Positions 29,529 through 59,073 of a DNA stretch of 64,000 bases are shown piece after piece. The position numbers and the translations under genes are program-made. The stretch is from Candidatus Woesearchaeota archaeon (lineage in GTDB: Archaea > Nanobdellota > Nanobdellia > Woesearchaeales > UBA583), in NCBI GenBank assembly GCA_965205335.1, contig OZ242164.1:552713-616712 (forward strand). The letters run 5' to 3'. The notes beneath the pieces are model-generated. The model was not told the origin of the DNA, searched no databases, and saw nothing but the letters and a program-made list of their open reading frames with translations. Every line of letters begins with the position of its first letter. Within the stretch, counting starts at the first letter, position 1.

Positions 29529-30521
29529 GTGGTGTCTTTGTTAAGGGAGAAAACTAACAGTTCAGAAAACCATAGACTGGAACAAAGATTAGAAGGTTGG
29601 AGAAGATTAGACTATTTAGGAAGAGAATACGTTAGATTATACAAAGATTTAGTCCATGAAGATGAGCAAGGTAATCCATTACCATTTGAAGAAACCCCTA
29701 AAATGAGATCTACTAAAGACGAAATTCTCACAAAAATTCAGCGTTATTTACATTATCTAATGAGGGAAATTGTTTTCAAAGGCAAAACAATAAATCTGAG
29801 AGGTAGAGAAGTTGGACTTTCCCTATTTGGTAATCCAGAATGGGTGAATAATAGAGAGTATCTTCTCAATGAAGTAATTCAGGATGCAAACTTAGCAATT
29901 CTTGAAAATTTACATAAATACAATCCAGAATTTGCCTTCTCACAATATGTTTCTCTTATGTTTGTAACAGGTGTTAAAAGATATATGAATAAAAGAAGAG
30001 GTTTAATCAGAATCTCCATTCATAGACAATCACCTTTTTTTTGGAAATGTCTAAGCAAATCAAACGGATTAGAAGATTTTGTTAGATTAGTTAATAAAGA
30101 AACAGGATTGAAGGATAATGCATGCTGTGCTATTTACTTTGGATTAACAAATGAGTATGAACCTCTCTTTGAAGAACCCCAATATAAACAAGAAGATGGG
30201 AGTACTGCCCCTCTATCTTATGAGGAAAGCCTTGCAGATGAATCCTTATCAGGAAGAGACCCTTTAAAAATATTTGAGAAATTTGAACTTCGTGAAAATA
30301 CCAGATATGTTTTAAGTGAGACACGACTAACCAAACGTGAACGAGATATAATCTCTCTTCATTTTGGATTAGACAATAATAAAGAGTTAACTTTAGAAGA
30401 AATTGGAAAAAGGTATGGTGTAACAAGAGAGGCAATCCGACAGATTGAAGCGGAAGCATTTAAAAAATTACGCAGAAGAACTCTTAATACCCCTCACCTT
30501 AAAGAATATCTTGGTTCTTAA
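29529..30521 (+). CDS. Sigma-70-family RNA polymerase sigma factor-like protein (regions 2 and 4)
   Basis: LNEVIQDANLAILENLHKYNPEFAFSQYVSLMFVTGVKRYMNKRRGLIRISIH aligns with sigma region 2 (LIQEGNIGLMKAVEKFDPE...TIRIPVH). DIISLHFGLDNNKELTLEEIGKRYGVTREAIRQIEAEAFKKLR is a textbook region 4.2 HTH. GTG start lies 26 nt from TATA ccttataaatc. Confidence 0.65.
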   Translation: MVSLLREKTNSSENHRLEQRLEGWRRLDYLGREYVRLYKDLVHEDEQGNPLPFEETPKMRSTKDEILTKIQRYLHYLMREIVFKGKTINLRGREVGLSLFGNPEWVNNREYLLNEVIQDANLAILENLHKYNPEFAFSQYVSLMFVTGVKRYMNKRRGLIRISIHRQSPFFWKCLSKSNGLEDFVRLVNKETGLKDNACCAIYFGLTNEYEPLFEEPQYKQEDGSTAPLSYEESLADESLSGRDPLKIFEKFELRENTRYVLSETRLTKRERDIISLHFGLDNNKELTLEEIGKRYGVTREAIRQIEAEAFKKLRRRTLNTPHLKEYLGS

Positions 30522-30639: not shown

Positions 30640-31683
30640 ATGAAATTAGTAAAAACAATTCTTAGCATATTTATAGTTGCCCTCACTCTATTTCTTGTAT
30701 TTATCCTATGGGCTTCATCTCAAAGTGGCATAGCACACCAGATAAATGGCGTACACACTACAACAAACACATCCTATAACTCTCCCTATGAAAGTTTAGA
30801 CAACAATAAAATAATAATAGCAACATATAATATTGGATATTTTTCATATCTTTCAAATATGGGTTTATATATTGATAAGAATATCAATGAATCCTTCCAG
30901 AAATTTGACAAACGCCCATCCAAGAACATATATGATACCGCAGAGAAGACATTTCAAAAAATAATGAAAGACAAACAAATAGATATACTTGCCACACAGG
31001 AAGTTGATTTTAAAGCATATCGCTCATACCATGCTAATCAGGGAGAGATAATTACATCACTCCTATCATTTCCTTATTCTGCATACATAGTAACATGGGA
31101 TAAAACTTTTGTACCATACCCCTATTCATTTGATTACGCAACACGTGATGTAGTTTCAGGACAGGGAGTATTTTCACGCCACCGTATTATCTCGCAGGAA
31201 ACCATTAGCCTCCCTCAATCAGGCGGAATCCTTCGCCGGCACTTTGATTTTAAAAAAAAGATACAAATAATAAGTATGGAAATTGACAAAGAAGTTGTAT
31301 ATATCATACACGCGCATCTTGATGCCTTTGATGCAGATACCAACTTTAAACAGGGACAGATACTTTTTGATACATATAAAAAAACTAAAGAGAAGGGTCC
31401 AACAATTGTACTTGGCGATTTCAACAATGATATAAAAACAGAAAAAGGGGAGAATGCTCTCTCAATATTTTTAAAATCTGATGAGATCGCACATATCTCG
31501 CAAGAGCCTCTTGATGAAAATTTCTATACATACCCATCAAATAACCCCATATTTCCTATTGATCACATACTATATGACCCAGATCATTTCTCTGTTGAAA
31601 AATGGGAAGTACTTAATATCTCAGGGGTATCTGATCACCTTCCAGTTATCGCAACACTGCATCTTATTAACAAATCACAATAA
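30640..31683 (+). CDS. Secreted endonuclease/exonuclease/phosphatase (EEP) family hydrolase
   Basis: Signal/TM; IATYNIGYF, LATQEVD, VLGDFNN, SDHLPVIATL are EEP catalytic motifs. Confidence 0.7.
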   Translation: MKLVKTILSIFIVALTLFLVFILWASSQSGIAHQINGVHTTTNTSYNSPYESLDNNKIIIATYNIGYFSYLSNMGLYIDKNINESFQKFDKRPSKNIYDTAEKTFQKIMKDKQIDILATQEVDFKAYRSYHANQGEIITSLLSFPYSAYIVTWDKTFVPYPYSFDYATRDVVSGQGVFSRHRIISQETISLPQSGGILRRHFDFKKKIQIISMEIDKEVVYIIHAHLDAFDADTNFKQGQILFDTYKKTKEKGPTIVLGDFNNDIKTEKGENALSIFLKSDEIAHISQEPLDENFYTYPSNNPIFPIDHILYDPDHFSVEKWEVLNISGVSDHLPVIATLHLINKSQ

Positions 31684-31706
31684 CCAAAAGGAAAATCAAA
31701 AAATCT

Positions 31707-33845
31707 CTAAACTTTTTTAACCAAATCCTTATAATACATAAGTCCCAACTGAGGTCCTTTCTTTGTCACAACATTGGCGCTATTTCCCGCTGCATACTCC
31801 ATTGCCTTTTTAATTGTACATCCCTTTGAATAAAAATACATAAAAGTTGCTCCAAAACAATCCCCTGCTCCTGTTGTATCAACAATCTTATCTGGCTTGA
31901 ATGCAGCAGTAAAATACTCCATATTCCCATCATAAGCGTAAGAACCATTCGCTCCATCCGTTACAATAACCAACTCACACGCAAGTTTCTTCAAACCCCT
32001 AAGAACAGAACTAAAAGACTGCTCCTTTCCCAAAATCTCACAAGCCTCCTCATAATTCAAAATAATAACATCACAAATCCTAATTAAATCCATTAACTTA
32101 GGTTCAGTGTGAATTAAAGAAGGACTTGCTCCATAAAAAATCTTTGCTCTCTTATTTCTCTTCTTTATAATCTTAGCAAGCTCTAACTGAGTCTTAAAAC
32201 TCTCCCCACTAAGAGCTGTAAAATAATAAAAATTTGAAGAAAATTTATTATAATCAAAATTATCTAACTCTAAAAACTGATTTGAACCCCTATAAGTAAT
32301 AATCAATCTGTCATTATCTTTTGTATCCAAAAGAATTGACTTGGCAATTGGTTTTTTTGTCTTCTTTGACTCAATTAATCTCACATTCTCTATATCAAGC
32401 CTCTCCTTTAAAAAATCAAACTCATTATATGAAATTTTTCCTAAATAGGCAACCCTTGCTCCCAACCTTGCAAGACAAACAGACATATTAACTCCCCCCC
32501 CCCCAAGTTCTTTCTTAAAATCATCCTTAACCCTAACTTTCTCACCAATATACAAATTTGAGAACTTCTCATTAACACTAACCACTGTATCCAAAACATT
32601 TGAACCCACTACTATAAAATCCTCTCTTCCTTCAAACTTAGAACATAACATCTCAAGAACTTCAATTCCAAAAAGTCTCTCATTTGACAAAAACTTAACC
32701 AAAGCCCCTCCAGCAAGACTAACATACGAAAACTTATCCAAACACTTGAACTTCTCTGCAACAGTTACACTATGCCCTCCTCCCACAAAAGAAAACCCCT
32801 TTGAATTTACAATCTCTCTTAGAATGCTCTTAGTTCCAACATCACACCCTTTAAGCTCAAAATTCCCGCAAGGCCCCTTCAAATAAATACCTCCTGCCTG
32901 CCTTAACAATAACGAATACTTTCTTATAGTATCACTTCCTATATCATTTATCATATTCTTATCCAAAAACTTCCTATTACTACCCAACCCACTTGCTTTT
33001 ATCTCAACCCTTCTTCCATTCAAAACTAATGCAACATCACTTGGAAATAAAATCTTCTTTGGATACTTTCTAAGAAGTCCCCTTAAATCCTTCTCAACTG
33101 ATAAATAATTATTCTCTCTTAGAAAATCCAGTTTCTTCCCCAGATAAAAACCATTAACATGCAGTGCAATCTCCCCAATAACACCTGTTAGCAAAATACA
33201 ATCAACTTCCTTTAACCTAAGAGACTTCTCAATCAAAGGAATTAAATCATCAGGCTTAGCTCCTCCAAAAACATATACTAATGGCCTATGAACTAATGAA
33301 ATACTATTTAACCCTCTAAGTTCTCTATCCATTAACCTTCCTGCAATTACTGGAATCTTTGAAAAACCAACAACAGACGTCTGCTTCCTATGACATACAG
33401 AAAACGCATCAAAAACATAATAATCGAAAACCCTCTCAAGCGACTTTATAATATTACCCTTCTTATTTACATCCAACTCATCATCATAGAACCTCAAATT
33501 CTCAAGCAAAAGAATCTCCCCACATTTTAGAGATAAAATCCTATCATCTCTTCTCTTATCATCCAAATCACAAAAACCAATCTTCCTATTAATACACTTT
33601 GAAATCAGCTTAGAATGCTGCTTTAAAGAAATACAATCCACCTTCCCAGTCCTGCCCTGATGCGCCAAAATAACTACTCTTGCTCCCTTACTTACAAGTT
33701 CATCTATTGTCGAAGACGCCTTAACAATTCTCTCATTTAGAACCACCTTTGACTTAATAACAGGAGAATTAATATCAATCCTTAGCCCTACAATCCTATC
33801 CTTTAAATCAAAACTATCAAGAGTGAAATAATTATGCATAAACAC
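31707..33845 (-). CDS. pgk: Fusion protein: phosphoglycerate kinase (N-terminal, about 400 aa) plus PfkB-family carbohydrate or nucleoside kinase (C-terminal, about 300 aa)
   Basis: PGK: RIDINSPV...VVILAHQGRTG...LLLENLRFY. PfkB: GGGGVNMSVCLARLG ... DTTGAGDCFGATFMY...GNSANVV. Confidence 0.75.
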   Translation of the reverse strand: MFMHNYFTLDSFDLKDRIVGLRIDINSPVIKSKVVLNERIVKASSTIDELVSKGARVVILAHQGRTGKVDCISLKQHSKLISKCINRKIGFCDLDDKRRDDRILSLKCGEILLLENLRFYDDELDVNKKGNIIKSLERVFDYYVFDAFSVCHRKQTSVVGFSKIPVIAGRLMDRELRGLNSISLVHRPLVYVFGGAKPDDLIPLIEKSLRLKEVDCILLTGVIGEIALHVNGFYLGKKLDFLRENNYLSVEKDLRGLLRKYPKKILFPSDVALVLNGRRVEIKASGLGSNRKFLDKNMINDIGSDTIRKYSLLLRQAGGIYLKGPCGNFELKGCDVGTKSILREIVNSKGFSFVGGGHSVTVAEKFKCLDKFSYVSLAGGALVKFLSNERLFGIEVLEMLCSKFEGREDFIVVGSNVLDTVVSVNEKFSNLYIGEKVRVKDDFKKELGGGGVNMSVCLARLGARVAYLGKISYNEFDFLKERLDIENVRLIESKKTKKPIAKSILLDTKDNDRLIITYRGSNQFLELDNFDYNKFSSNFYYFTALSGESFKTQLELAKIIKKRNKRAKIFYGASPSLIHTEPKLMDLIRICDVIILNYEEACEILGKEQSFSSVLRGLKKLACELVIVTDGANGSYAYDGNMEYFTAAFKPDKIVDTTGAGDCFGATFMYFYSKGCTIKKAMEYAAGNSANVVTKKGPQLGLMYYKDLVKKV

Positions 33846-34035
33846 ACAACAATAAAAACCAATAAAAGAAATTATATAAACTCAATAGAGAAGACTACCC
33901 AAAATAAACCCAAAACATTCCCCTGTCGTTGTTGACTTTAGCCTTTCAAAAACTCTTATTTTCTAAAAGGAAACCAGAATTAACCCCCTTAAAATAATTA
34001 ATAACTTATATAATACTCCTAATGATAATTCTATT

Positions 34036-36360
34036 ATGAATACAAAAACAAAAGCCGCCCAAAAAGTTGTCCAGAAAAAGTCCCAAGCAAAACGTACAAA
34101 AAAAGCAGAAACAGTTGTTACAAAAGAAGATGCAAAACTCTTAGATGATACTCTAAATATGGTTAAATCACTAAACCAAAAAATTAGTACTGTCAGTAAA
34201 GCAAAAACAAAACTCCAAAAGGATGTATCAGAACTAAGCAGAAGAATTGACTCAAAGGATAAAAACCAAACAGATGATTCAAAGTTAAAAGACGAAATAA
34301 TAGAAGAATTTAAACCAATCTTTAATAAACTAAATCCTCAGACATTAAAAACCCAGTTAAATAAAGAAATTAATTCATCCCTTAAACAGGAAATTGAAAA
34401 AGCAAAATCCCAAGTAAAATCAGATACGAAAAAAGGAGCAGAAGAAATCTCAAAGAAAGTAGCACATTTAGAGAAGGATTTAATGCAGTCAATAAAATCA
34501 AATGAAAAACTAAAAAATGAACTAAACAGATTAAGCAACTCAAAATTAGGTGAAGATATTTTTATAGGAGTTGAAAAGAAAATCCGTGAACATGTTGAAA
34601 TCTCCCTAAGAAAAATTTCAAAGGAAATTTCAGAGTTAAGAGTTAATCCACAAGGACATCAGGACAAATCCTTAAACAATAAGATAAGTAACATTGAAAA
34701 GTCTTTAAACAAACTTGAAAAGGAATTGAAAAAAACAGAGGATAAAACATCTAAAAGCATTCAAAAAGAAGTAGAAAACATCAAAAAGAAGATTCTAAGC
34801 GATTTGAAATCAAAAGATTTAAACCATAAAAGAGAACTTGAAGTATTTAAGATTGAAGTATCAAAGCATATCAGGGCATTACTTGATGGATTACATGCAG
34901 AATACAACCTACTAAAAGAGAAGGCTCAGGAGTCCCAGATGGAAGAAGAGAAATTCTTAGAGGAAGTAGCGCAGGGAAATTTGGACAGATATGAATTATT
35001 TTCACAAAGGGTTGATAAGGCAATAAAATCAAACAAAGAAACCGAAGAGAAACTTGTGGAATTAACTTATAACAATAAAGTTGAACTTGAAAACATATTT
35101 GCGCAGCAAATCAAAGAGGACTTAGCACAGAAAACAATTTCCAATAATGAGTTCTTATTAAATCTAAAAAAATTAGCAAAAGAGAAACAGGAGGAATTGT
35201 CAGAGAATATTGATAACAAATTAGTTAATTCAGTTGCCCAATTTGAAGGAAAGTTTCATGAGTACATGCAGGATTTTGACAAGGCCTTAAAGGAGAAAGA
35301 AAAAGAGTTTTTAGAAAAGTTAAAAGTAGTTGAGAATGAACGTTATGAAGTTATCTCTCAAATGGAAGAATTTAAAGAAGAAATATCAAAATTAACAAAA
35401 GAATATATGGCAAACCTTCATGATGAACTTGAGAGAATTAAGAAAAAAGAAGTTAAATTAGGTAATGAGAAAAACCAGTTTCTTGTACATATCAATGAAT
35501 CATCAAAGGCAAGAAAATTAGAAATTGAAGATCTTGCAAATCAAATGAAAGATAGAGTTAAGGGAGTTTTAGAGGAAGAGAGAGACGCATTTGACAGACA
35601 TGAAGAAACATTTAGAGGAGTGTTTTATGAAAAAGTCCAGAATCTGCATGATTTCTCAAAGAAAAAACTAGAAAATATTGAAAGAAAGTTTGTTGACAAG
35701 AATCTAAAATATGTTAGTGATAAAATTAATTCAATGCTTGAACCTCTAAGATTACTTGAAGAAAGTGTCAATGCAAAGGAAGGTGAAATTTCAAAATTAG
35801 GTCAGGAAATCAACAGCAAACAGGAAGTCTTCTTAGAAGATTTTCATTCACATCAAAAGAATTTAAATCAGGATTTTACAAAACTTGAGAAAAAGTTAAA
35901 TGAAAAACTTGAAGATTCAGACAAGCAAATTATAAAATCAAGAAGTGTTGTCAAAGCTATTCTTGAAGAAGTTGAATTCTCAATGACAAAAATGGATAAT
36001 TTAATCAATTCAAAGATAGAGGAAATTAATGCAGGCTTAAACAGATTAAAATCCATAGAAAGTAGACTCGTGGGAATTTCACAAATAGATTATAAGATTA
36101 ATCAGATAGAATCAAATATGAACAATATGCATGGTAAAATCAATGAAATTGAAAATCTAAATCATACACATGGGTTTGAATCACTTAATTTATTAGTTTC
36201 AACAATTGGAGAATACGAGCAAAATTTAATTGCCTTAGTAAAATCACTTAAATCAGAAGGAGTTTCAGAAGAGCACATTAAAACCATTCTAAGACAGAAA
36301 GGTCACCCTATGCTATATGTCTCAATGGTCTTGGAAAATCTGAACTTCTTAGAGCACTAA
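34036..36360 (+). CDS. Long coiled-coil protein (774 aa, Lys/Glu-rich), function unknown
   Basis: Heptad-rich low-complexity sequence throughout; no enzymatic motifs. Confidence 0.5.
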   Translation: MNTKTKAAQKVVQKKSQAKRTKKAETVVTKEDAKLLDDTLNMVKSLNQKISTVSKAKTKLQKDVSELSRRIDSKDKNQTDDSKLKDEIIEEFKPIFNKLNPQTLKTQLNKEINSSLKQEIEKAKSQVKSDTKKGAEEISKKVAHLEKDLMQSIKSNEKLKNELNRLSNSKLGEDIFIGVEKKIREHVEISLRKISKEISELRVNPQGHQDKSLNNKISNIEKSLNKLEKELKKTEDKTSKSIQKEVENIKKKILSDLKSKDLNHKRELEVFKIEVSKHIRALLDGLHAEYNLLKEKAQESQMEEEKFLEEVAQGNLDRYELFSQRVDKAIKSNKETEEKLVELTYNNKVELENIFAQQIKEDLAQKTISNNEFLLNLKKLAKEKQEELSENIDNKLVNSVAQFEGKFHEYMQDFDKALKEKEKEFLEKLKVVENERYEVISQMEEFKEEISKLTKEYMANLHDELERIKKKEVKLGNEKNQFLVHINESSKARKLEIEDLANQMKDRVKGVLEEERDAFDRHEETFRGVFYEKVQNLHDFSKKKLENIERKFVDKNLKYVSDKINSMLEPLRLLEESVNAKEGEISKLGQEINSKQEVFLEDFHSHQKNLNQDFTKLEKKLNEKLEDSDKQIIKSRSVVKAILEEVEFSMTKMDNLINSKIEEINAGLNRLKSIESRLVGISQIDYKINQIESNMNNMHGKINEIENLNHTHGFESLNLLVSTIGEYEQNLIALVKSLKSEGVSEEHIKTILRQKGHPMLYVSMVLENLNFLEH

Positions 36361-36374
36361 ATTTTTTAATGCTA

Positions 36375-37223
36375 TCAATTAATACTTTCTATTTCAACAG
36401 GCTTTGTACGATAAGTAACTAAAAACTCTGACTTATCGTACAACAGGTTAGCAGTAATTCCCAAGTTTTCCATTTCCATAATAAGAACGCAAATATTATG
36501 GCATACAATTTTACATAACACTTCGTTTACCTGTGCTGTCCTGTTTTTAGATTTAACATTATCCCCAAACTTCTTTTTCACCATACTAAATGTAGTTTCA
36601 ACATTACTTCGTTTATGATAATGTTCCATAAACTCATCCTGATTATAAAGGAAATAATGTAATGCTTTCTTCCAGATTATACCTCGTTTATGTTTGGATT
36701 TTTCATTTACATTATTTTTGAAAGGAATATAAGGAACTGCTCCTACTTCATTGATTGCTTCTAAGTTTTCCTTACTGATATACGCCTTATCTCCTGAAAA
36801 CTCCTCTATTGTGAAGACTTCATTAGTCTTATCCAGTAACTCTTTTAACTGTGGGCTGTCGTGGTCAAATTCAGACGTTATTTTAACTGCTGGAATGATG
36901 TTAGTATGAACTCCTGAAACTATGTGACATTTAACCCATTTCTTATATCTGTCCTGTGTGGAATGCTTATACTTATTCCAGTTCTGCACTATTGACGTAC
37001 CAAATCCCGAACTGTCTATTGCAAAATTGGTTTCAACTTCTTTCAATGGCTGTGATGTAATCTTAATCAGGTTGTGCAGAATCTCTGAAACCTCTTTTTT
37101 ATTAAAGTAAACTTTAAGTGTTGTAAATGGAACTTCCTTAGTTATGTACTCAAAATCCTTGCTTAACTGCATATCACAGGTAAATCTACGCCCAGAAACC
37201 CCTGAATACACTTTAAATATCAT
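36375..37223 (-). CDS. IS transposase orfB (DDE_Tnp_1 / IS4-IS5-like catalytic domain)
   Basis: DSSG...GDKAY...YHKRSNVETTFSMVKKKFG (Y-x2-R-x3-E-x6-K signature). The ORF reads through the left TIR into flanking DNA for its last 8 codons. Confidence 0.75.
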   Translation of the reverse strand: MIFKVYSGVSGRRFTCDMQLSKDFEYITKEVPFTTLKVYFNKKEVSEILHNLIKITSQPLKEVETNFAIDSSGFGTSIVQNWNKYKHSTQDRYKKWVKCHIVSGVHTNIIPAVKITSEFDHDSPQLKELLDKTNEVFTIEEFSGDKAYISKENLEAINEVGAVPYIPFKNNVNEKSKHKRGIIWKKALHYFLYNQDEFMEHYHKRSNVETTFSMVKKKFGDNVKSKNRTAQVNEVLCKIVCHNICVLIMEMENLGITANLLYDKSEFLVTYRTKPVEIESIN

Positions 37224-38062
37224 TGAGTTAAAATATCGTGTATAGGTGTTTTAGGTCGCCCAAACTTATAACCTTCCTCCTGTGAGTTCTTAACTAAATC
37301 GCTCAACAATTTCATAAACTTGTCCTTCTCTGTTTTCTGTGCCTCATCATAAGCACTCCAATTCTGTGTGTATATCTTCTTAGTTACTTCCTGTTTTAAA
37401 GTTCCGTCGGTATAAATTGTCTGAGTTACAGTATATTCTACTGCAAAGATATGCTTACATTTAGAGTGACGCTTCTTATAGTCCATACAACTGCATTTAG
37501 CACCAAAACCATTACTCTTAACCACATAGCACATTTTAGTATTCGTTTGGCTCGTACTATCTACGTTGTATCATTCTCCTTCTTAATCTTGAAGTCCTTT
37601 GCAATTTCAAGACCTCTTTCTTGTCTTAAGTTTTGTTGTGGTTGTTTGTTTTGTACCATAATAAGTAATAATTATTACTCTTAAAATATTTATTAATACC
37701 TATACCTAATAATCCTGAAAAAATATCCTAAATTATTAAAGAGAATATAAAAATTGCTAAAAAGTCAAGAATAGAGGAATTAAAAGCAATGTCCAAAATT
37801 AATGAAACTCCTATAATTTCAATTTTTGGTTCAATACAAAAAAACTAAGGACAAAAACATTTAAATATCTCTACCTTTTTATTGTATAAGAGATTTCGCT
37901 TAATTTCACTCGTGGTTGTTTGTTTTTAGGCGAAATCTCTCTTATTTTTAAATAATATATATAAATATTAAAGTTTAGTAAATTTTATGACAAACCAAGT
38001 AATTTAAGACTTTTCGTACAGATTCCTTACTTTTCGTACAAAACACACTTTTCGTACAAAGC
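36400..38062 (-). mobile_element. IS element (1663 bp) of the IS4/IS5-type DDE superfamily with a separate SWIM-zinc-finger orfA
   Basis: 17-bp TIRs GGCTTTGTACGATAAGT (36400-36416) and ACTTTTCGTACAAAGCC (38046-38062). 9-bp direct target duplication ATTTCAACA at 36391-36399 and 38063-38071. Three subterminal acttttcgtaca repeats at 38010-38062. Confidence 0.7.
37220..37534 (-). CDS. IS orfA: SWIM zinc-finger DNA-binding protein
   Basis: CSCMDYKKRHSKCKHIF (CxCxnCxH SWIM); stop overlaps the orfB start in ATGA, indicating translational coupling. Confidence 0.6.
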   Translation of the reverse strand: MCYVVKSNGFGAKCSCMDYKKRHSKCKHIFAVEYTVTQTIYTDGTLKQEVTKKIYTQNWSAYDEAQKTEKDKFMKLLSDLVKNSQEEGYKFGRPKTPIHDILTQ

Positions 38063-38389: not shown

Positions 38390-39040
38390 ATGGAAGTGAA
38401 AATAATCCCAAGTGTATTTGCAACAAGCATTCAGACTTTTAATTCAAAACTTGAGAAACTAAAGTTTTCAAATGAAATTCACCTAGATTTCATGGATGGA
38501 AAATTCACGCCCAAAAAATCAGTTAAACTCTTAGATACGAATAAAATAAAGAACCACCCTAATATTAAGTTTGAAACTCATTTAATGGCATACAATCCAA
38601 TAAAATATAAAAATAAACTAAAAGACATGGGAGTTAAAAAAATTCTAATACATTTTGAGGTATTTAACAAAAGAGAAAATCTCATTCAAACATTAGATGA
38701 ATTCAAAAAAGAAAAATTTGAGGTATTTCTCGTATTAAACCCTAACACAAACATAGAGAGCATTCTAAACTATACAAGATTAATTGATGGTATAATGCTA
38801 ATGTCAGTAATCTCTGGTGCTGAAGGGCAGAACTTCATTGAGAAAACTTATAAGAGGATAGAATCTCTGAGAAAAAATGAGCCCAATGTAATAATTCAGA
38901 TAGATGGGGGAATAAAAGATACAAATATAGAGAAAATGGTTAAGAAAGGAGCGAATATCCTAACTATTGGTTCTTATATTTCATCCTCAGAAACTCCAGA
39001 AGATAATTTTAAAAAACTAAACCATTTAATAGGAAATTAG
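38390..39040 (+). CDS. rpe: Ribulose-phosphate 3-epimerase
   Basis: IIPSVFATS...HLDFMDGKFTP...IQIDGGIKDTN motifs. Confidence 0.7.
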   Translation: MEVKIIPSVFATSIQTFNSKLEKLKFSNEIHLDFMDGKFTPKKSVKLLDTNKIKNHPNIKFETHLMAYNPIKYKNKLKDMGVKKILIHFEVFNKRENLIQTLDEFKKEKFEVFLVLNPNTNIESILNYTRLIDGIMLMSVISGAEGQNFIEKTYKRIESLRKNEPNVIIQIDGGIKDTNIEKMVKKGANILTIGSYISSSETPEDNFKKLNHLIGN

Positions 39041-39137
39041 AATCCTAATTACTCTTTTATTAAAAAATGTTAGCAATTTTTTCACGACATTTTTTAAAAC
39101 ATAAATAATATTAATGAGTTTTAAGAGATATTTTTAG

Positions 39138-39416
39138 ATGGAACTTAACATACTGCATAATTATGAATTTAAAGACGTGCTTAACACATTCCCAGTATTA
39201 AAAGAAACATTGGATGAATTAGACATCAATTTAGAAGATATTCATGATGGTGAGACAATGGATAATTACTTTAGCAGAAAATCCCTATCACAAGAAGAGG
39301 TTGATGTTATTATCAGAAAAATGAATCGTAAACTGCAAACACATTTTCACAGAACTGATGAAAAAAGAGAACCCTCCTCGTTTGAAAAGCTCACAATAAG
39401 AGAAGAGGAGGAATAA
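39138..39416 (+). CDS. Hypothetical small acidic protein
   Basis: 92-aa ORF. Confidence 0.3.
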   Translation: MELNILHNYEFKDVLNTFPVLKETLDELDINLEDIHDGETMDNYFSRKSLSQEEVDVIIRKMNRKLQTHFHRTDEKREPSSFEKLTIREEEE

Positions 39417-39627
39417 TCTTCTCCTTAAATCCTAATATTTTTAAATCATGTATCCTTTCCACTTCTTACAACAACAAAGTTAAATGTAAAGGCGCCAAGT
39501 TTTGAAGTTATAACATATCATAATAAACCCACATAAGAAATATATAATTTAGAGAGAACAATCCAAAGCAAACTTATGTAACTCTTTTGAGATAATTACA
39601 AATTCTTTTTAATAAAAAAAGGACAAA

Positions 39628-40440
39628 ATGAGCATGACAGATTATAGAAACATAAAGAAAGCAATGAAAAAACTTGAAACTGATGGGAAATCTTTCTTTT
39701 TAGCATATGATCATGGTCTTGAACATGGGCCAAGTGATTTAAGTGATGATAATGAGAATCCACAAGATTTATTTTATTGGGCTGAGAAGGGGGAATTTGA
39801 TGGTTTCATCTGTCAGAAAGGAATTGCAGAAAAATATGGAGATTCTTATAAAACAAATATAATTCTTAAAGTTAATGGCAAGACAACTCTTGGCATAAAG
39901 GACGATCCTTATTCTCCTGTTATTTGTAGTGTGAAAAGAGCTGTCGAGTTAAACGCAAAATGTATTGGGTTTACTTTCTTCCCTGGCTCTTCATACCAGT
40001 CTAAGATGTACGAAGACTTTAGAAAGATTCAGGAAGATGCCCATGACTTTGGGCTTCCTGTTGCCGCTTGGATGTATCCAAGAGGTAAAGCAATTAAAAA
40101 CGATATGGATGGAGAACTTTTGGCTTACTGCGCAAGAATTGGGCTTGAGATAGGTGCTGATATGGTTAAGATGAAATACAACGGAAACAAAGATGATTTC
40201 GCAAAACAAGTTCAAACAGCAGGAAAAACTAAGGTTTTATTATCTGGAGGACCTAAACATAACTCAACAAAGGAGTTTTTACAAGATGTATGCGATGTTA
40301 CAAGTGTTGGGGCACATGGGCTTGCAATCGGGAGAAATATATGGCAACACGAAAAACCAATTGAATTAAGCAAAGCAGTCAGAGATGTTCAGATAAGAGG
40401 CAAAGACATTTACACAGCCCTTAAAAGATTAGAAAATTGA
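39628..40440 (+). CDS. Class I fructose-bisphosphate aldolase / DhnA-family aldolase (FBA or ADH synthase AroA')
   Basis: FLAYDHGLEHGP ... GADMVKMKY (Schiff-base Lys region) ... LSGGPK; about 270 aa is typical of the archaeal DhnA family. Confidence 0.6.
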   Translation: MSMTDYRNIKKAMKKLETDGKSFFLAYDHGLEHGPSDLSDDNENPQDLFYWAEKGEFDGFICQKGIAEKYGDSYKTNIILKVNGKTTLGIKDDPYSPVICSVKRAVELNAKCIGFTFFPGSSYQSKMYEDFRKIQEDAHDFGLPVAAWMYPRGKAIKNDMDGELLAYCARIGLEIGADMVKMKYNGNKDDFAKQVQTAGKTKVLLSGGPKHNSTKEFLQDVCDVTSVGAHGLAIGRNIWQHEKPIELSKAVRDVQIRGKDIYTALKRLEN

Positions 40441-46618: not shown

Positions 46619-47416
46619 ATGATTGTTAAGGAAGAATTTCTAAATATGCTAAGGCAGTATTTTAGTCTAAATCTTTATGAAGTTAAGATTTGGACTGCCC
46701 TTTTATCACGAAAAGTAGCAACTGCTGGCGAACTAAGTGACTTAGCTGTAGTACCTAGATCAAGAACATATGATGTTTTGGAATCTCTTGAGAAGAAAGG
46801 ATTTGTAATGGTTAAGTTAGGCAAACCAATTAAATACATTGCCATATCTCCAGCCGATGTTATCGACAGAGTAAAGAAAAGATTTACAGAAAAGTCTAAA
46901 GAGAAATTGGATAAGTTAGAGGCCTTAAGGGATTCTGACGTTTTAAAGGATTTAGAGCAATTACATGAACAAGGAATTCAATTAGTTGAACCCTCTGATT
47001 TAAGTGGTGCTCTAAAAGGAAGATATAACCTATACAATCATTTAGAAGCAATGGTTAAGTCAGCTGAATCTGAAGTAATCATAATGACTACTTCAACTGG
47101 ATTTCTAAGAAAGGTTGAAGCTCTTAGAGGAGTATTTGAAGAATTACAAGACAGAGGAGTTTCCATTAAGATTGCATGCCCTAAAACTGATAAAACAAAA
47201 GATTTAAGCAGTACCCTAAAAGACTTAGCAGAAGTAAGGTTCACAAATGAAATTGAAGCAAGATTCTGCATCATTGATGGAGAAGAAGTATTATTTATGA
47301 CACTTCATGACAAAGATATTTACCCAGCATATGACATTGGAGTATGGGTTAACACACCATTTTTCGCCCAGGCTCTTCAGCAATTATTTGAAATCGCTTG
47401 GAAAGAGATGAAATAA
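46619..47416 (+). CDS. TrmB-family transcriptional regulator
   Basis: N-terminal wHTH LYEVKIWTALLSRKVATAGELSDLAVVPRSRTYDVLESLEKKGFV plus a C-terminal sensor-like domain. Confidence 0.65.
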   Translation: MIVKEEFLNMLRQYFSLNLYEVKIWTALLSRKVATAGELSDLAVVPRSRTYDVLESLEKKGFVMVKLGKPIKYIAISPADVIDRVKKRFTEKSKEKLDKLEALRDSDVLKDLEQLHEQGIQLVEPSDLSGALKGRYNLYNHLEAMVKSAESEVIIMTTSTGFLRKVEALRGVFEELQDRGVSIKIACPKTDKTKDLSSTLKDLAEVRFTNEIEARFCIIDGEEVLFMTLHDKDIYPAYDIGVWVNTPFFAQALQQLFEIAWKEMK

Positions 47417-56989: not shown

Positions 56990-57577
56990 ATGAATATTGA
57001 CATAACTAAAATTAATATTGGTGAAATATCTCAGGTAATAAAAAGAGGAATATCGTCATATTATTTATGTGAGGAAGGTAATATTGAGAATTTTGTAAAT
57101 ATTAAAGATATTCAAAATGGAGTTATAAATATGGAATTCGTTGAAAGAGTTAAGATTAAAATTACAAATTCAACTAAAAATTCACAATTAGAAGTTGGAG
57201 ATTTGGTTTTAGCAGTCAAAGGCTCTAATTATAAGTGTGGTTTAGTTGATGAAAATTCAGAAGGTTCATATATTAGCAGTAATTTAATTGCAATTAAACT
57301 TAAACATCAATACAATTCTGAACTCGTTTTGGAATATTTGAACAGTTCTTTTGGTCAAAAGGAATTAAATATAAGAGCAAGTGGCAACTTTCAAAAATCA
57401 TTATCTATTAAGTCCATCTTAGATATTGAGATACCTATTTTTCCTAAAGATAAGGAAAATGTATTAGTTAAGTTTTTTGAGTTAAGTAAGAAGTTAGTTA
57501 AATTAAATATGCAAGAGTTAAAGTTAAGAAGCAAGTTAAATAATGAGATAATTGGAGAGGTTTTAAAAAATGATTGA
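56990..57577 (+). CDS. hsdS: Short (single-TRD) Type I restriction-modification specificity subunit HsdS
   Basis: N-terminal INIGEISQVIKRG start of a TRD and C-terminal conserved coiled region IPIFPKDKENVLVKFFELSKKLVKLNMQELKLRSKLNNEII; overlaps hsdM by 8 nt. Confidence 0.55.
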   Translation: MNIDITKINIGEISQVIKRGISSYYLCEEGNIENFVNIKDIQNGVINMEFVERVKIKITNSTKNSQLEVGDLVLAVKGSNYKCGLVDENSEGSYISSNLIAIKLKHQYNSELVLEYLNSSFGQKELNIRASGNFQKSLSIKSILDIEIPIFPKDKENVLVKFFELSKKLVKLNMQELKLRSKLNNEIIGEVLKND

Positions 57578-59069
57578 AAATACACTAACAGATGAACAGT
57601 TAAAAAGCAAAGTATGGCAGGCGGCAGATATATTAAGAGGTTCTATTGATTCATCAGATTATAAGAACTATATTTTCGGATTTTTATTCTTAAAAAGGTT
57701 GTCTGATGTTTTTGAAGAGAAAGTGCAGAAGATTTTAGATGAAGGAGAGAGTAAAGGTGTTGCATATGATCCTGATGAACACAAATTCTTTGTTCCCGAA
57801 AAAGCAAGATGGAAAAATATTAAGAAACAGCCTTCACAAATTGGTGATTATCTAAACAAAGTTGCAGCAGAGTTGGAGGATGAAAACAAATCATTGGACG
57901 GAGTTCTCAAAACTATTGATTTTAACAGCGAGCAGTTAGGAGATGTAAAGCAGAGAGATTCTACTTTATTGCAGTTAGTTCAGCACTTTTCAGCAATTCC
58001 TTTGAGAAATTCTGATATACACAGAGCTGACGCTTTAGGAGATGTATATGAGTATTTAATTGAGAAATTCGCTGATGATTCCGGAAAGAAAGGTGGAGAG
58101 TTTTATACACCAAAGGAAGTCGTTAAATTGATAGTTGAATTGTTAGACCCAAAAGAAGGAATGAGAATTTGCGACCCCACCTGCGGTTCTGGTGGTATGC
58201 TAATTGAAAGTGCTCATCATATTAAGGAAAGCAAAGGTAACGAACATAATATTTCTTTGTTTGGACAGGAAAAGAATGTCGGAACTTGGAGTATATGCAA
58301 GATGAATATGCTTTTGCATAATCTTCCCGATGCAGATATTAGAAAAGGAGATACTATTCGTGAGCCTAAATTATTATCTGACGGGCAGTTAGTATTGTTT
58401 GATAGAGTAATCGCCAATCCTCCTTTCTCCTTGGACAGATGGGGTATTGAAACCGCTCAAAATGATGGCTTTGGAAGGTTCATTTATGGAATACCTCCCA
58501 AGTCCAAAGGGGACTTTGCGTTTATTGAGCATATGATTGCAACAACTAATCAGGATGGAATGGTTGGAGTTGTAGTTCCTCACGGAGTTTTATTTAGAGG
58601 AGCATCTGAAGGAAGAATAAGGACTAATTTTATTGAAAAAGATTTAATTGAGGCTGTTGTTGGATTGCCTTCAAATCTGTTTTATGGCACAGGCATTCCT
58701 GCCGCAATTTTAGTGTTTAACAAATCCAAGTCTGCAGACAGAAGAAATAAGGTATTGTTCATTGATTCATCGCAGAATTTTGAAAGCGGAAAAAATCAGA
58801 ATAAGTTAAGAAGCAGTGATATTTCTAAAATTGTTAATGCATTTAAGGATTATAAGACTATTGATAAGTATTCAAGAGTTGTAGAGATTAAAGAGATTAA
58901 AGAGAATGATTACAATTTGAATATTTCAAGATATGTTGATACAACGCCAGAGGAAGAGCCCATTGACATTAAGGCGACTATAAAGGAGTTGAATGATATT
59001 GAGAAAGAGAAAGCAGAAGTAGAAAAAGAGATGAACAAATATTTAGAAGAGTTGGGATTTAAGAGGTGA
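57570..59069 (+). CDS. hsdM: Type I restriction-modification DNA methyltransferase subunit HsdM (N6-adenine)
   Basis: HsdM_N region, GEFYTPKEVVKLIVELLDP, motif I DPTCGSGGMLI, motif IV NPPFS. Confidence 0.9.
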   Translation: MIENTLTDEQLKSKVWQAADILRGSIDSSDYKNYIFGFLFLKRLSDVFEEKVQKILDEGESKGVAYDPDEHKFFVPEKARWKNIKKQPSQIGDYLNKVAAELEDENKSLDGVLKTIDFNSEQLGDVKQRDSTLLQLVQHFSAIPLRNSDIHRADALGDVYEYLIEKFADDSGKKGGEFYTPKEVVKLIVELLDPKEGMRICDPTCGSGGMLIESAHHIKESKGNEHNISLFGQEKNVGTWSICKMNMLLHNLPDADIRKGDTIREPKLLSDGQLVLFDRVIANPPFSLDRWGIETAQNDGFGRFIYGIPPKSKGDFAFIEHMIATTNQDGMVGVVVPHGVLFRGASEGRIRTNFIEKDLIEAVVGLPSNLFYGTGIPAAILVFNKSKSADRRNKVLFIDSSQNFESGKNQNKLRSSDISKIVNAFKDYKTIDKYSRVVEIKEIKENDYNLNISRYVDTTPEEEPIDIKATIKELNDIEKEKAEVEKEMNKYLEELGFKR

Positions 59070-59073
59070 TAAT

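What the first reader, a model, noticed from the sequence alone, without database searches (positions are those of the whole stretch)
31707..33845. Phosphoglycerate kinase fused to a PfkB-family sugar or nucleoside kinase
A single 712-aa ORF carries a complete PGK (RIDINSPV...AHQGR...LLLENLRFY) followed by a complete PfkB kinase (GGGGVNMS...DTTGAGDCFGA). I do not know of this fusion as a characterised enzyme. In DPANN and other reduced archaea, PfkB kinases act in nucleoside salvage feeding 3-phosphoglycerate into lower glycolysis, so fusion to PGK could channel that flux. Rpe and a class I aldolase lie 5-6 kb downstream.
Basis: partly seen in the sequence, partly recalled or inferred. Interest (0 to 1): 0.5.

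Follow-up and report, generated by a model that had tools for sequence, protein, structure and literature searches.

The report
Conserved archaeal PGK–sugar kinase fusion protein
A small-genome (DPANN/Woesearchaeota-type) archaeon encodes one protein that joins the glycolytic enzyme phosphoglycerate kinase to a second, ribokinase-like sugar kinase; the fusion is real, old and conserved in over 80 relatives, is labelled only 'phosphoglycerate kinase' in databases, and its hidden second half is a candidate for the phosphofructokinase these archaea are reported to lack.

Summary
Window 31707-33839 (minus strand; 710 aa from the ATG, 712 from an upstream GTG) encodes a complete archaeal PGK (PF00162, 290 bits) joined within about 5 residues to a complete PfkB kinase (PF00294, 142 bits). 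It is not a frameshift artefact. About 82 cluster representatives of roughly 710 aa from independent assemblies share the architecture at 39-57% identity. They form one clade in a PGK tree. All catalytic motifs are invariant in both halves, and dN/dS is 0.17 and 0.14. The G11 tract is in frame. The only 'split' close relative carries a 1-nt insertion inside the PfkB domain on a 3x contig.

The PfkB half belongs to a distinct subfamily that reaches no NCBIfam equivalog cut-off (ribokinase 108 bits against 300). Its fold is ribokinase-like, but it lacks the ribokinase Lys and has three conserved basic residues that ribokinases lack. Six of eight loci holding its nearest stand-alone relatives place the kinase gene within about 3.5 kb of a fructose-bisphosphate-type aldolase gene (four within 1.5 kb). 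One such Saccharibacteria kinase was recently predicted to be a pfkB-type PFK. Woesearchaeota are reported to lack pfk.

My best reading is a bifunctional PGK/sugar-phosphate kinase, most likely a PFK (about 0.35-0.4). Ribokinase is the main rival. I found no published description.

The parts
31707..33839 (-). Fusion gene, 710 aa from the ATG (an in-frame GTG at 33845 would add 2 aa); PGK-PfkB bifunctional protein
   Evidence: (P0001, 710 aa, 100% identity)
32631..33827 (-). Complete archaeal-type phosphoglycerate kinase half (aa 5-403). Contains RIDINSP, AHQGR, LENLRF, CHRKQTS, GGAKPDD, KGPCGNFE, GGGHS and SLAGGALV.
   Evidence: Pfam PF00162 289.6 bits, full profile. End-to-end alignment to P. 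horikoshii PGK 2CUN, 228 bits. Motif residues invariant in 37 fused homologues. Coordinates.
32616..32630 (-). Junction of about 5 residues (EGRED) between the last PGK helix (…KFEG) and PfkB strand beta1 (DFIVVGSN). There is no flexible linker, and the length is fixed in 31 of 37 homologues.
   Evidence: Junction alignment. AF2 model has no low-confidence segment at the junction; pLDDT 91.4, pTM 0.83.
31722..32615 (-). Complete PfkB (ribokinase-like) kinase half (aa 409-706). Contains VVGSNVLD (sugar-binding Asp), IGEK, GGGGVN, DRLIITYRGSN, NYEE (NXXE), VTDG and DTTGAGD (anion hole plus catalytic Asp).
32494..32504 (-). G11 homopolymer (C11 on the + strand) encoding the invariant GGGG motif. 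It is the only G/C run of 8 or more bases in the window. A +/-1 slip would give a 450- or 465-aa PGK-only product.
33873..33880 (-). TATA-like box (TTTATATA) ending 33 nt upstream of the ATG; a candidate archaeal promoter for a monocistronic gene
   Evidence: Read directly from the sequence. Function is inferred, not tested.
31698..31703 (-). Oligo-T run starting 4 nt after the stop codon; a candidate archaeal terminator. The gene converges on the Exo_endo_phos gene at 30640-31683.
   Evidence: Read directly from the sequence; neighbour identified

Best explanation
Shown. The gene encodes a genuine, anciently fused and selectively maintained bifunctional protein of Woesearchaeota-type (Nanoarchaeia, DPANN) archaea. 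A complete archaeal phosphoglycerate kinase is joined with essentially no linker to a complete, catalytically competent PfkB (ribokinase-fold) kinase. The PfkB half belongs to its own subfamily, which is found almost only in this fusion.

Inferred. The PGK half is the cell's ordinary PGK (1,3-bisphosphoglycerate + ADP <-> 3-phosphoglycerate + ATP). The PfkB half uses ATP to phosphorylate a sugar or sugar phosphate of central carbon metabolism. My preferred substrate is fructose 6-phosphate. On that reading it is a ribokinase-like, PFK-B-type 6-phosphofructokinase feeding the DhnA-type class I aldolase encoded 6 kb away. It would then supply the 'missing pfk' of Woesearchaeota, overlooked because the whole protein is named PGK (the one record that shows orthology codes lists only COG0126 and K00927).

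Speculative. The fusion ties an ATP-investing step to the ATP-yielding PGK step in fixed 1:1 stoichiometry, possibly with local ADP/ATP exchange. Dimerisation through the PfkB lid sheet would pair two PGKs.

Step probabilities: real bifunctional fusion about 0.95; both halves catalytically active about 0.85; PfkB half is a PFK about 0.35-0.4; direct nucleotide hand-over about 0.15. The overall confidence given (0.38) is for the statement including the PFK assignment.
For: Fusion real and conserved:
- About 82 cluster representatives of roughly 710 aa carry PF00162 plus PF00294 at 39-57% identity, from NCBI, ENA, JGI and Logan assemblies.
- All 81 fused proteins other than P0197 form one clade in an NJ tree of PGK domains, with an unfused Woesearchaeal PGK (P0089) as sister.
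- The only close 'split' (L001) is a +1 T inside the PfkB domain on a 3x contig.
- dN/dS is 0.17 for the PGK half and 0.14 for the PfkB half.
- Catalytic motifs of both halves are invariant across 37 sequences.
- The junction has a fixed length.
- The AF2 model has pLDDT 91.4 and pTM 0.83.

PGK half is a complete archaeal PGK.

PfkB half is a distinct subfamily:
- In the exhaustive HMMER search the top 17 hits are fused proteins or fragments. After a gap from 183 to 156 bits come stand-alone proteins at 30-36% identity.

Not a canonical ribokinase:
- TIGR02152 scores 108.5 bits against a cut-off of 299.65.
- It has GGGGxN where ribokinases have GGKGANQ.
- K434, R511 and R/K517 are conserved where the ribokinases aligned have Thr, Glu/Gln and Asn/Pro.

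PFK lead from context of relatives:
- Saccharibacteria L006 has a PGK, class II ketose-bisphosphate aldolase, PfkB operon.
- L007, L048 and archaeal L009 have PfkB beside class II FBA.
- P0157 sits in a PfkB, PEP synthase, DhnA aldolase cluster on 3 contigs.
- P0161 sits in a PfkB, ROK glucokinase-like, DhnA aldolase cluster.

Literature:
- The TM7x 'ribokinase' in the FBA operon is predicted to be a pfkB-type PFK and is induced by glucose (PMC12815258).
- pfk is reported absent from all or most Woesearchaeota (PMC5994134; PMC8421398).
- PFK-B enzymes include archaeal 6-PFKs (PMC12525153).
- A DhnA-type aldolase is present in the window.
Against: - No direct evidence exists for any substrate.
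- The relatives that carry the aldolase linkage are only 27-36% identical to the fused PfkB half. Two of the eight contexts point elsewhere: a PfkB-RpiB-Rpe operon suggesting ribokinase and a true DeoC nearby.
- PfkB-plus-aldolase pairs also occur in inositol (IolC/IolJ) and tagatose pathways. IolC is the second-best NCBIfam hit at 88.7 bits.
- The fusion gene has no conserved metabolic neighbours in the window or in the four relatives examined (L001, L003, L004, L005).
- The window's aldolase scores equally as ADH synthase.
- Woesearchaeota could bypass PFK through the pentose-phosphate pathway, as PMC5994134 proposes.
- One lineage (P0047) separates the halves by a disordered linker of about 320 aa. 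One genuine stand-alone PfkB (P0123) and unfused, unlinked PGKs (P0089) also exist. Tight physical coupling is therefore not obligatory.
- pTM is only indirect evidence for a fixed interface, because I could not inspect PAE or coordinates.
Confidence: 0.38

Rival explanations
1. The PfkB half is a ribokinase or broad (deoxy)ribo-nucleoside kinase. It activates scavenged ribose or nucleosides to ribose 5-phosphate or nucleotides. The non-oxidative pentose-phosphate pathway then converts these to glyceraldehyde 3-phosphate, and ATP is recovered at the PGK step. The fusion would link the entry kinase and the first pay-off kinase of ribose fermentation.
For: - Ribokinase is the best curated-family hit (TIGR02152, 108.5 bits, aligned end to end).
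- Ribokinases are the best PDB sequence hit (5zwy, 80 bits).
- The sugar-binding Asp and Asn equivalents (D417, N451) are invariant.
- One near stand-alone relative (P0163) sits in a tight PfkB-RpiB-Rpe operon, and another lies near a true DeoC.
- Rpe lies 4.5 kb from the gene.
Against: - The score is about a third of the ribokinase cut-off.
- The ribokinase GGKGANQ lysine is an invariant Gly.
- Three conserved basic residues are absent from the ribokinases aligned.
- The nucleoside kinase model scores only 54.7 bits against 450.
- Six of eight loci holding related stand-alone kinases are aldolase-linked rather than linked to the pentose-phosphate pathway.
- Identity to any characterised ribokinase is only 21-25%.
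Confidence: 0.3
2. The PfkB half is a ribose-1-phosphate (or related) kinase of the archaeal pentose-bisphosphate/AMP nucleoside-degradation pathway. The RuBisCO product of that pathway, 3-phosphoglycerate, is handed to the fused PGK.
For: - Some Woesearchaeota subgroups encode AMP phosphorylase, R15P isomerase and form III RuBisCO (PMC8421398).
- Ribose-1-phosphate kinases are PfkB enzymes and give detectable hits (NF053626 50.8 bits; NF041134 45.5 bits).
- Conserved basic residues would suit a phosphorylated substrate.
Against: - The hits are far below the cut-offs of 330 and 500, and weaker than the ribokinase and IolC hits.
- Catabolic 3-PGA does not pass through PGK. PGK would be used only gluconeogenically (pathway knowledge).
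- No RuBisCO, deoA or e2b2 gene lies near the fusion in any of the five contexts examined.
- The fusion is widespread in the clade, whereas the AMP pathway is reported only for some subgroups.
Confidence: 0.1
3. The PfkB half phosphorylates some other substrate (for example 2-keto-3-deoxygluconate, 5-dehydro-2-deoxygluconate, tagatose 6-phosphate, fructose or inositol). Alternatively it has become a regulatory or nucleotide-sensing module for PGK rather than a metabolic kinase.
For: - IolC (88.7 bits), fructoselysine kinase (67 bits) and KDG kinase (65.5 bits) give comparable sub-threshold hits.
- PfkB specificity is notoriously hard to predict, and no equivalog cut-off is reached.
Against: - The catalytic Asp, anion hole, NXXE and GG motifs are all invariant. 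This argues for a working kinase rather than a pseudo-enzyme.
- No pathway partners for inositol or Entner-Doudoroff routes were seen in any examined context.
Confidence: 0.18
4. The fusion is an artefact: an assembly error or sequencing frameshift (for example at the G11 tract) has merged two adjacent genes.
For: - A G11 homopolymer lies inside the ORF.
- The closest relative, L001, is annotated as two overlapping genes.
Against: - About 82 independent fused homologues exist from different assemblers and samples.
- The G11 tract lies about 40 codons inside the PfkB domain, not at the junction. It encodes the invariant GGGG in the same frame that relatives encode without a homopolymer.
- L001's split is a 1-nt insertion inside the PfkB domain on a 3x contig, and purifying selection continues downstream of it.
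- The junction has no room for a stop codon plus a start codon.
Confidence: 0.01

Closest known systems
Bifunctional phosphoglycerate kinase/triosephosphate isomerase (Thermotoga-type; NCBIfam NF010569)
   Same: PGK forms the N-terminal half of a fusion with a second central-carbon enzyme. NF010569 matches the PGK part (aa 8-403, 201.9 bits).
   Different: The partner here is a PfkB kinase, not TIM. The score is far below the cut-off of 883, and only model positions 5-392 of 645 align. The lineage is archaeal (DPANN), not bacterial.
Pyrococcus horikoshii phosphoglycerate kinase (PDB 2CUN) and other stand-alone archaeal PGKs
   Same: It aligns end to end with the PGK half (228 bits) and shares the archaeal GGGHS motif and all substrate- and nucleotide-binding motifs.
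   Different: Stand-alone PGKs end where the fusion continues directly into a PfkB domain.
Saccharibacteria TM7x_02415-type PfkB kinase ('ribokinase' in the FBA operon, predicted to be a pfkB-type phosphofructokinase; PMC12815258)
   Same: It is a ribokinase-like PfkB kinase in a reduced-genome organism said to lack pfk, and it is genomically tied to glycolytic genes. The Saccharibacteria loci L006 and L048 that I examined show the same kinase-plus-aldolase arrangement, and in L006 PGK is in the same operon. These kinases share the GxK, GGG[GA]xN and [DE]R signature, and most also have a basic residue at the Y[KR]G position (3 of 6 Lys/Arg, 2 of 6 His).
   Different: Identity to the fused PfkB half is only 27-31%. 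The association there is by operon, not by fusion, and the aldolase is class II. The PFK function is itself only predicted, with qPCR support. I did not compare TM7x_02415's own sequence.
Ribokinase (EC 2.7.1.15; TIGR02152; e.g. PDB 5zwy, 2fv7, 1vm7)
   Same: These give the best sequence and structure similarity. The fold, lid sheet, GG, NXXE and GAGD motifs are the same.
   Different: The score is below the family cut-off (108.5 against 299.65). The Lys of GGKGANQ is Gly, and extra conserved basic residues are present (K434, R511, R517). The kinase is fused to PGK.
PFK-B-type ATP-dependent 6-phosphofructokinases (E. coli Pfk-2, PDB 3CQD; Aeropyrum pernix PFK, Hansen and Schonheit 2001)
   Same: They belong to the same superfamily, and the proposed reaction is the same. 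The existence of archaeal PFK-B 6-PFKs is established.

Membership tests
Phosphoglycerate kinase (PF00162, EC 2.7.2.3) | Full-length match to the family profile above the curated cut-off | tested here: met
   289.6 bits against a cut-off of 27; profile positions 1-377 of 379. 228 bits end to end to PGK structure 2CUN.
Phosphoglycerate kinase (PF00162, EC 2.7.2.3) | 3-PG-binding basic patch and nucleotide/hinge motifs (RxDxN, R37, HQGR, LENLRF, HR, GGAK, GPxGxFE, GGG, GGA) | tested here: met
   R20 D22 N24 R37 H60 Q61 R63 R116 H150 R151 K195 G322 G325 F327 E328 G353-355 G377-A379 are invariant in 37 fused homologues. Assigning these residues to functions rests on established PGK literature and was not tested here.
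Phosphoglycerate kinase (PF00162, EC 2.7.2.3) | PGK enzymatic activity | not testable with these tools
   Needs an enzyme assay.
PfkB / ribokinase-like carbohydrate kinase superfamily (PF00294) | Profile match above the cut-off and the ribokinase fold with a lid beta-sheet | tested here: met
PfkB / ribokinase-like carbohydrate kinase superfamily (PF00294) | Catalytic signatures: GG dipeptide, NXXE, and the [DN]TxGAGD anion hole with catalytic Asp | tested here: met
   G446-G449, N595/E598 and T656-G-A-G-D660 are invariant in 37 sequences and in relatives.
Ribokinase (TIGR02152, EC 2.7.1.15) | Score at or above the equivalog cut-off | tested here: not met
   108.5 bits against 299.65. The second ribokinase model, NF008353, scores 62.2 against 341.
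Ribokinase (TIGR02152, EC 2.7.1.15) | GGKGANQ motif with the ribose-contacting Lys | tested here: not met
   The query has GGGGVNMS where Leishmania and Thermus ribokinases have GGKGANQA in the printed alignments. The Gly is invariant in the family. That this Lys contacts ribose rests on my memory of the E. coli RbsK structure.
Pfk-2/FruK/LacC hexose-phosphate kinase subfamily (TIGR03168, TIGR03828) | Score at or above the subfamily cut-off | tested here: not met
Ribose-1-phosphate kinases (NF041134 ADP-dependent; NF053626 ATP-dependent) | Score at or above the equivalog cut-off | tested here: not met
   45.5 bits against 500, and 50.8 against 330.
Archaeal nucleoside kinase (NF041164) | Score at or above the equivalog cut-off | tested here: not met
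Bifunctional PGK/TIM (NF010569) | Both PGK and TIM halves present and the score at or above the cut-off | tested here: not met
   Only model positions 5-392 of 645 align, at 201.9 bits against 883. There is no TIM domain.
PGK-PfkB fusion family (defined here) | Protein of about 710 aa with N-terminal PF00162 plus C-terminal PF00294, a junction without a linker, and placement inside the monophyletic fused clade | tested here: met
   The window protein (P0001) nests inside the clade of 81 fused proteins.

The most novel reading that the evidence does not exclude
The PfkB half is the long-'missing' 6-phosphofructokinase of Woesearchaeota-type DPANN archaea. Its rigid fusion to PGK forms a closed adenylate loop, in which ATP made at the PGK site is used directly by the PFK site. 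That would be a single-polypeptide analogue of the ATP balance kept inside trypanosome glycosomes. It would mean that many 'glycolysis-incomplete' DPANN genomes in fact run a complete Embden-Meyerhof pathway.
Probability: 0.15. Interest if true: 0.75.

Novelty: new variant of a known kind. Interest (0 to 1): 0.55.

Why it matters
Metabolic reconstructions of Woesearchaeota and other DPANN archaea repeatedly report an incomplete glycolysis lacking phosphofructokinase, and they use this as evidence for dependence on a host or partner (PMC5994134, PMC8421398). This protein family is named only 'phosphoglycerate kinase', and the one record that shows orthology codes lists only COG0126 and K00927. 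A conserved and apparently active sugar kinase would therefore be missed by reconstructions that rely on one name or orthology code per gene.

If the hidden half is a PFK, the inferred metabolic dependency of a very large and widespread archaeal group would need revising. The same holds, to a lesser degree, if it is a ribokinase that feeds the pentose-phosphate bypass. A similar PfkB 'ribokinase' next to FBA, and sometimes PGK, occurs in CPR/Saccharibacteria. This suggests a shared solution in both ultra-small-cell radiations.

The question can be tested directly with one recombinant protein. The fusion is also a clean natural example of coupling an ATP-consuming kinase to an ATP-producing kinase.

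Tried and rejected
1. Frameshift or assembly artefact at the G11 tract: rejected.
2. The natural two-gene state in the closest relative L001: rejected. It is a +1 T inside the PfkB domain on a 3x contig.
3. A conserved operon context for the fusion gene: none found. Neighbours are housekeeping genes and vary.
4. A third enzyme domain in the 1014-aa variant P0047: rejected. The insert is an acidic, low-complexity linker.
5. GTDB genome scan for taxonomic distribution: largely failed. The scan did turn up the CPR PGK-FBA-PfkB loci.
6. The window's own protein (P0001) is not on record in the contig index, so the rest of its 1.2 Mb genome could not be inspected for PFK, ribokinase or RuBisCO.
7. 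P0150 as a stand-alone member: probably a 5'-truncated fragment. P0123 is the one verified stand-alone.
8. Substrate assignment by curated HMMs, for the fusion or for its nearest stand-alone relatives: no equivalog cut-off was reached.
9. The AFDB fold search of the full-length model was unavailable.
10. Literature: seven of the eight full-text searches, plus the supplementary files of an archaeal fusion/fission catalogue that were held as text, gave no description of a PGK-PfkB fusion.
11. P0197 as a second fused family: it is a singleton. An independent fusion is plausible but rests on one protein cluster.
Full report
OBSERVATION

The window (31% GC) carries an ORF at 31707-33845 on the minus strand. 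It is 712 aa from a GTG. The ATG two codons downstream (33839) gives 710 aa. This matches the public gene call P0001 (100% identity, 710 aa, on a contig of 1,199,749 bp) and the family's consensus N-terminus.

Pfam finds PGK (PF00162) at aa 9-387 with 289.6 bits over profile positions 1-377/379. It finds PfkB (PF00294) at aa 423-700 with 142.3 bits. The ribokinase model TIGR02152 aligns across aa 411-708 (model 2-296/298), so the second domain is complete as well. The PGK half aligns end to end with the Pyrococcus horikoshii PGK structure 2CUN (228 bits), including the archaeal GGGHS motif and the very C-terminal helix.

The organism is an archaeon of the Woesearchaeota/Nanoarchaeia (DPANN) type. 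Homologues are named 'Candidatus Woesearchaeota archaeon', 'Nanoarchaeota archaeon' and 'Candidatus Nanoarchaeia archaeon'. The syntenic relative L001 carries Rpp14, Kae1/TsaD and L15e.

IS THE FUSION REAL?

Yes, on several independent grounds.

- About 82 cluster representatives (90% identity clusters) of roughly 710 aa carry both Pfam domains at 39-57% identity. They come from NCBI, ENA, JGI and Logan assemblies.
- In a neighbour-joining tree of PGK domains, all 81 fused proteins other than P0197 form one clade. The only 'unfused' members inside it are P0011, P0087 and P0088. The genuinely unfused Woesearchaeal PGK P0089 is the sister.
- P0011 is the closest relative (87% nt identity, locus L001) and is annotated there as PGK plus PfkB genes overlapping by 59 nt. 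The DNA alignment shows a single extra T in a T-run at gene nt 1281 (aa 427). That position is inside the PfkB domain and not at the domain boundary, and the contig is labelled 3x coverage. After repairing that base, dN/dS between the window and L001 is 0.17 for the PGK half and 0.14 for the PfkB half. The PfkB half is therefore still under purifying selection, and the split is a sequencing error or a very recent event.
- The G11 tract (32494-32504) lies about 40 codons inside the PfkB domain. It encodes the invariant GGGG motif in the same frame in which five relatives encode it with mixed GGA/GGT/GGG codons.
- In a 37-sequence alignment, conservation is even across both halves. The catalytic signatures of both enzymes are invariant. 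For PGK these are R20/D22/N24, R37, H60-Q61-x-R63, R116, H150-R151, K195, the GPxGNFE core and GGG353-355. For PfkB they are D417, GGGG446-449, N451, N595-x-x-E598 and T656-GAGD660.

ANATOMY

The junction has essentially no linker. The last PGK helix (…LExSxxxFEK) is followed within 3-4 residues by PfkB strand beta1 (DFxVVGSN). The length is the same in 31 of 37 sequences, and only the most divergent clade has a 3-13 residue insert.

AlphaFold2 with this alignment gives mean pLDDT 91.4 and pTM 0.83 for the full 710 residues, with no low-confidence segment at the junction. This suggests a defined packing of the PfkB domain on PGK. I could not inspect PAE or coordinates, so this evidence is indirect. 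The PfkB half alone models at pLDDT 93.9 and pTM 0.92.

The tight arrangement is not obligatory everywhere:
- A 1014-aa variant (P0047/P0295) separates the halves by an acidic, low-complexity linker of about 320 residues.
- One genuine stand-alone member of the PfkB subfamily exists (P0123, 52% identity, no PGK gene upstream).
- Some Woesearchaeota have an unfused PGK with no PfkB neighbour.
- A distant singleton from Tara Oceans (P0197) has the same architecture. Its PGK half is closer to ordinary PGKs (40-42%) than to the fused clade (31-33%). This suggests a second, independent fusion, but on thin evidence.

The gene looks monocistronic. It has a TATA-like box ending 33 nt upstream of the ATG and an oligo-T run starting 4 nt after the stop, and it converges on the downstream gene.

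WHAT IS THE PfkB HALF?

It belongs to its own subfamily. In an exhaustive HMMER search of 1.84 billion representatives, the 17 best hits (at least 183 bits) are fused proteins or their fragments. After a gap to 156 bits there is a continuum of stand-alone PfkB proteins of about 320 aa at 30-36% identity.

No curated model reaches its cut-off:

| Model | Bits | Cut-off |
|---|---|---|
| Ribokinase (TIGR02152) | 108.5 | 299.65 |
| IolC | 88.7 | 300 |
| KDG kinase | 65.5 | 400 |
| Hexose-kinase subfamily (TIGR03168) | 63.2 | 216.4 |
| Nucleoside kinase | 54.7 | 450 |
| ATP-dependent R1P kinase | 50.8 | 330 |
| ADP-dependent R1P kinase | 45.5 | 500 |

It is not a canonical ribokinase. Where the ribokinases in the printed alignments have GGKGANQ, GET and no basic residues in the lid strands, this family has invariant GGGGxN, G-x-K434, [D]-R511 and Y-[R/K]517-G. 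The same signature (GxK, GGG[GA]xN, [DE]R, and in most sequences a basic residue at the Y[KR]G position) is shared with the nearest stand-alone clade and with CPR kinases discussed below. Extra conserved basic residues in the substrate lid are what one would expect for an anionic (phosphorylated) substrate. That is an inference and was not tested.

CONTEXT EVIDENCE

The fusion gene itself has no informative neighbours. In the window it sits between an Exo_endo_phos gene and a 774-aa coiled-coil gene. An IS transposase then separates it from Rpe (38390-39040) and a DhnA-type class I aldolase (39628-40440) on the other strand. The aldolase scores identically as archaeal class I FBA and as its paralogue ADH synthase. 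The four relatives whose contexts I examined (L001, L003, L004, L005) have housekeeping neighbours.

The nearest stand-alone relatives of the PfkB half are more telling:

| Relative or locus | Context |
|---|---|
| L006 (Saccharibacteria) | Tight operon: PGK, class II ketose-bisphosphate aldolase (TIGR00167, 228 bits against 215.6), PfkB |
| L007 (Patescibacteria) | FBA then PfkB, with PGK 4 kb away |
| L048 (Saccharibacteria) | PfkB then FBA |
| L009 (uncultured archaeon) | PfkB with FBA 1.3 kb away |
| P0157 (36% identity, three contigs) | PfkB, PEP synthase, DhnA aldolase |
| P0161 | PfkB, 2-hydroxyacid dehydrogenase, ROK glucokinase-like, GHMP kinase, DhnA aldolase |
| P0163 | PfkB-RpiB-Rpe operon (ribokinase-like context) |
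| P0162 | Near a true DeoC |

Six of eight are therefore linked to an FBP-type aldolase. A further locus, L010 (Kerfeldbacteria), has a PfkB about 8 kb from a PGK but no aldolase hit.

LITERATURE

I found no paper describing this fusion in seven of my eight full-text searches, nor in an archaeal fusion/fission catalogue, checking its main text and those of its supplementary files that were held as text. The eighth search addressed the missing pfk.

- Two Woesearchaeota comparative-genomics papers state that pfk is absent from all (PMC5994134) or most (PMC8421398) genomes, and that glycolysis is therefore incomplete.
- A 2025 paper on the cultured Saccharibacterium TM7x notes that a gene 'originally annotated as a ribokinase' lies in the same operon as FBA. 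[quoted passage not shown]
- PFK-B enzymes include bona fide archaeal 6-PFKs (PMC12525153).

MECHANISM: COMMITMENT AND UNCERTAINTY

Shown: a real, monophyletic, selectively maintained fusion of a complete PGK and a complete PfkB kinase that appears catalytically intact.

Inferred: the PfkB half phosphorylates a sugar or sugar phosphate of central carbon metabolism. My preferred assignment is fructose 6-phosphate, giving a ribokinase-like PFK-B-type PFK, at about 0.35-0.4. The grounds are the aldolase and PGK linkage of its relatives, the Rosetta-stone logic of fusion to a glycolytic enzyme, the reported pfk gap alongside an FBA-like aldolase, the basic-residue signature and the failed ribokinase signature.

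The main rival is ribokinase or nucleoside kinase (about 0.3). It has the best raw similarity, one pentose-phosphate operon among the relatives, and the nearby Rpe. Other substrates or a regulatory role take about 0.18, and artefact about 0.01.

Why fuse? The simplest reading is fixed 1:1 co-expression of an ATP-investing kinase and the ATP-yielding PGK in a tiny cell that cannot make its own nucleotides. Direct ADP/ATP hand-over is possible, given the rigid junction in most members. It remains speculative, and the long-linker variant shows it is not essential.

NOVELTY AND SCORE

Both domains are textbook families, and PGK fusions are known (PGK-TIM). The architecture also already sits in public databases under the name 'phosphoglycerate kinase'. 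This particular fusion, its breadth, and the distinct PfkB subfamily it carries appear not to have been described in the literature I could search. I rate it a new variant of a known kind, with interest 0.55. It is not categorically new, but it turns a long-standing 'missing enzyme' statement about a major archaeal radiation into a one-protein experiment.

Noticed in passing
window 32494-32504: The G11 tract is the only G/C homopolymer of 8 or more bases in the 64-kb, 31%-GC window. It encodes the invariant GGGG motif of the PfkB half. Five relatives encode that motif with mixed GGA/GGT/GGG codons, with no G run longer than 5. A +/-1 slip would give a 450- or 465-aa product with an intact PGK and no PfkB domain, so it could act as a phase-variable switch, or it may just be chance codon choice.
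   Followed up: partly
window 29529-30521 (+): A 272-330 aa protein with a bacterial-type Sigma-70 region 4 domain (PF04545, 62 bits) in what is otherwise an archaeal genome.
   Followed up: no
window 36375-37534 (-) and 2416-3411 (-): Mobile-element genes. A DDE_Tnp_1 transposase overlaps a small SWIM zinc-finger ORF, and this pair lies between the fusion gene and the Rpe/aldolase pair. An rve-family integrase core-domain gene lies near the start of the window.
   Followed up: no
window 38390-40440 (+): Co-oriented Rpe, a 92-aa ORF, and a DhnA-type class I aldolase. The aldolase scores identically (about 201 bits) for archaeal class I FBA and for ADH synthase, below both cut-offs, so its function is ambiguous.
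   Followed up: partly
window 46619-47416 (+): A TrmB-family sugar-specific transcriptional regulator (PF01978 plus PF11495), 6 kb beyond the aldolase. It is a possible regulator of sugar metabolism genes in this reduced genome.
   Followed up: no
P0047 / P0295 (1014 aa, Nanoarchaeota archaeon MFW5704297.1): A variant of the fusion in which PGK and PfkB are separated by an acidic, Lys-rich, low-complexity linker of about 320 residues. Its GG motif reads GGAG instead of GGGG.
   Followed up: partly
P0197 (748 aa, 'archaeon' MAF36796.1, Tara Oceans): A singleton PGK-PfkB fusion with a bacterial/eukaryotic-style GGGGDT PGK motif and a longer linker. Its PGK half is closer to unfused PGKs than to the Woesearchaeal fused clade, so it is probably an independent fusion event.
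   Followed up: partly
P0297-P0299, P0309 (789-795 aa): Other long PGK-containing proteins in which PGK covers only about half the length. One carries PF06962. These are different, uncharacterised PGK fusions.
   Followed up: no
L006 9914-12972; L007 4260-6084 and 9992-11086; L048 6374-8355; L009 1852-4963: CPR (Saccharibacteria/Patescibacteria) genomes and one uncultured archaeon place a ribokinase-like PfkB kinase next to class II fructose-bisphosphate aldolase. PGK is in the same operon in L006 and 4 kb away in L007. This is the arrangement recently proposed to encode the missing PFK of TM7x.
   Followed up: partly
L086-L088 (P0157) and L090 (P0161): Archaeal stand-alone PfkB kinases sit in clusters with PEP synthase plus a DhnA aldolase, or with a ROK glucokinase-like gene, a GHMP kinase and a DhnA aldolase. 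These are possible unannotated upper-glycolysis gene sets.
   Followed up: partly
L001 2870-5024: In the 87%-identical relative, the fusion gene is annotated as two overlapping genes because of one extra T in a T-run on a 3x-coverage contig. This is an example of a technical 'fission' in public data.
   Followed up: yes
window 34036-36360 (+): A 774-aa Lys/Glu-rich coiled-coil protein with no real Pfam family lies directly upstream of the fusion gene, divergently oriented. A protein of similar size with no Pfam hit occupies the same position in L001 (800 aa). Homology between the two was not tested.
   Followed up: no
window 57570-60417 (+): A type I restriction-modification methylase HsdM, followed by a Schlafen/AlbA_2-HATPase_c_4-HTH protein. 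This is a possible defence island.
   Followed up: no
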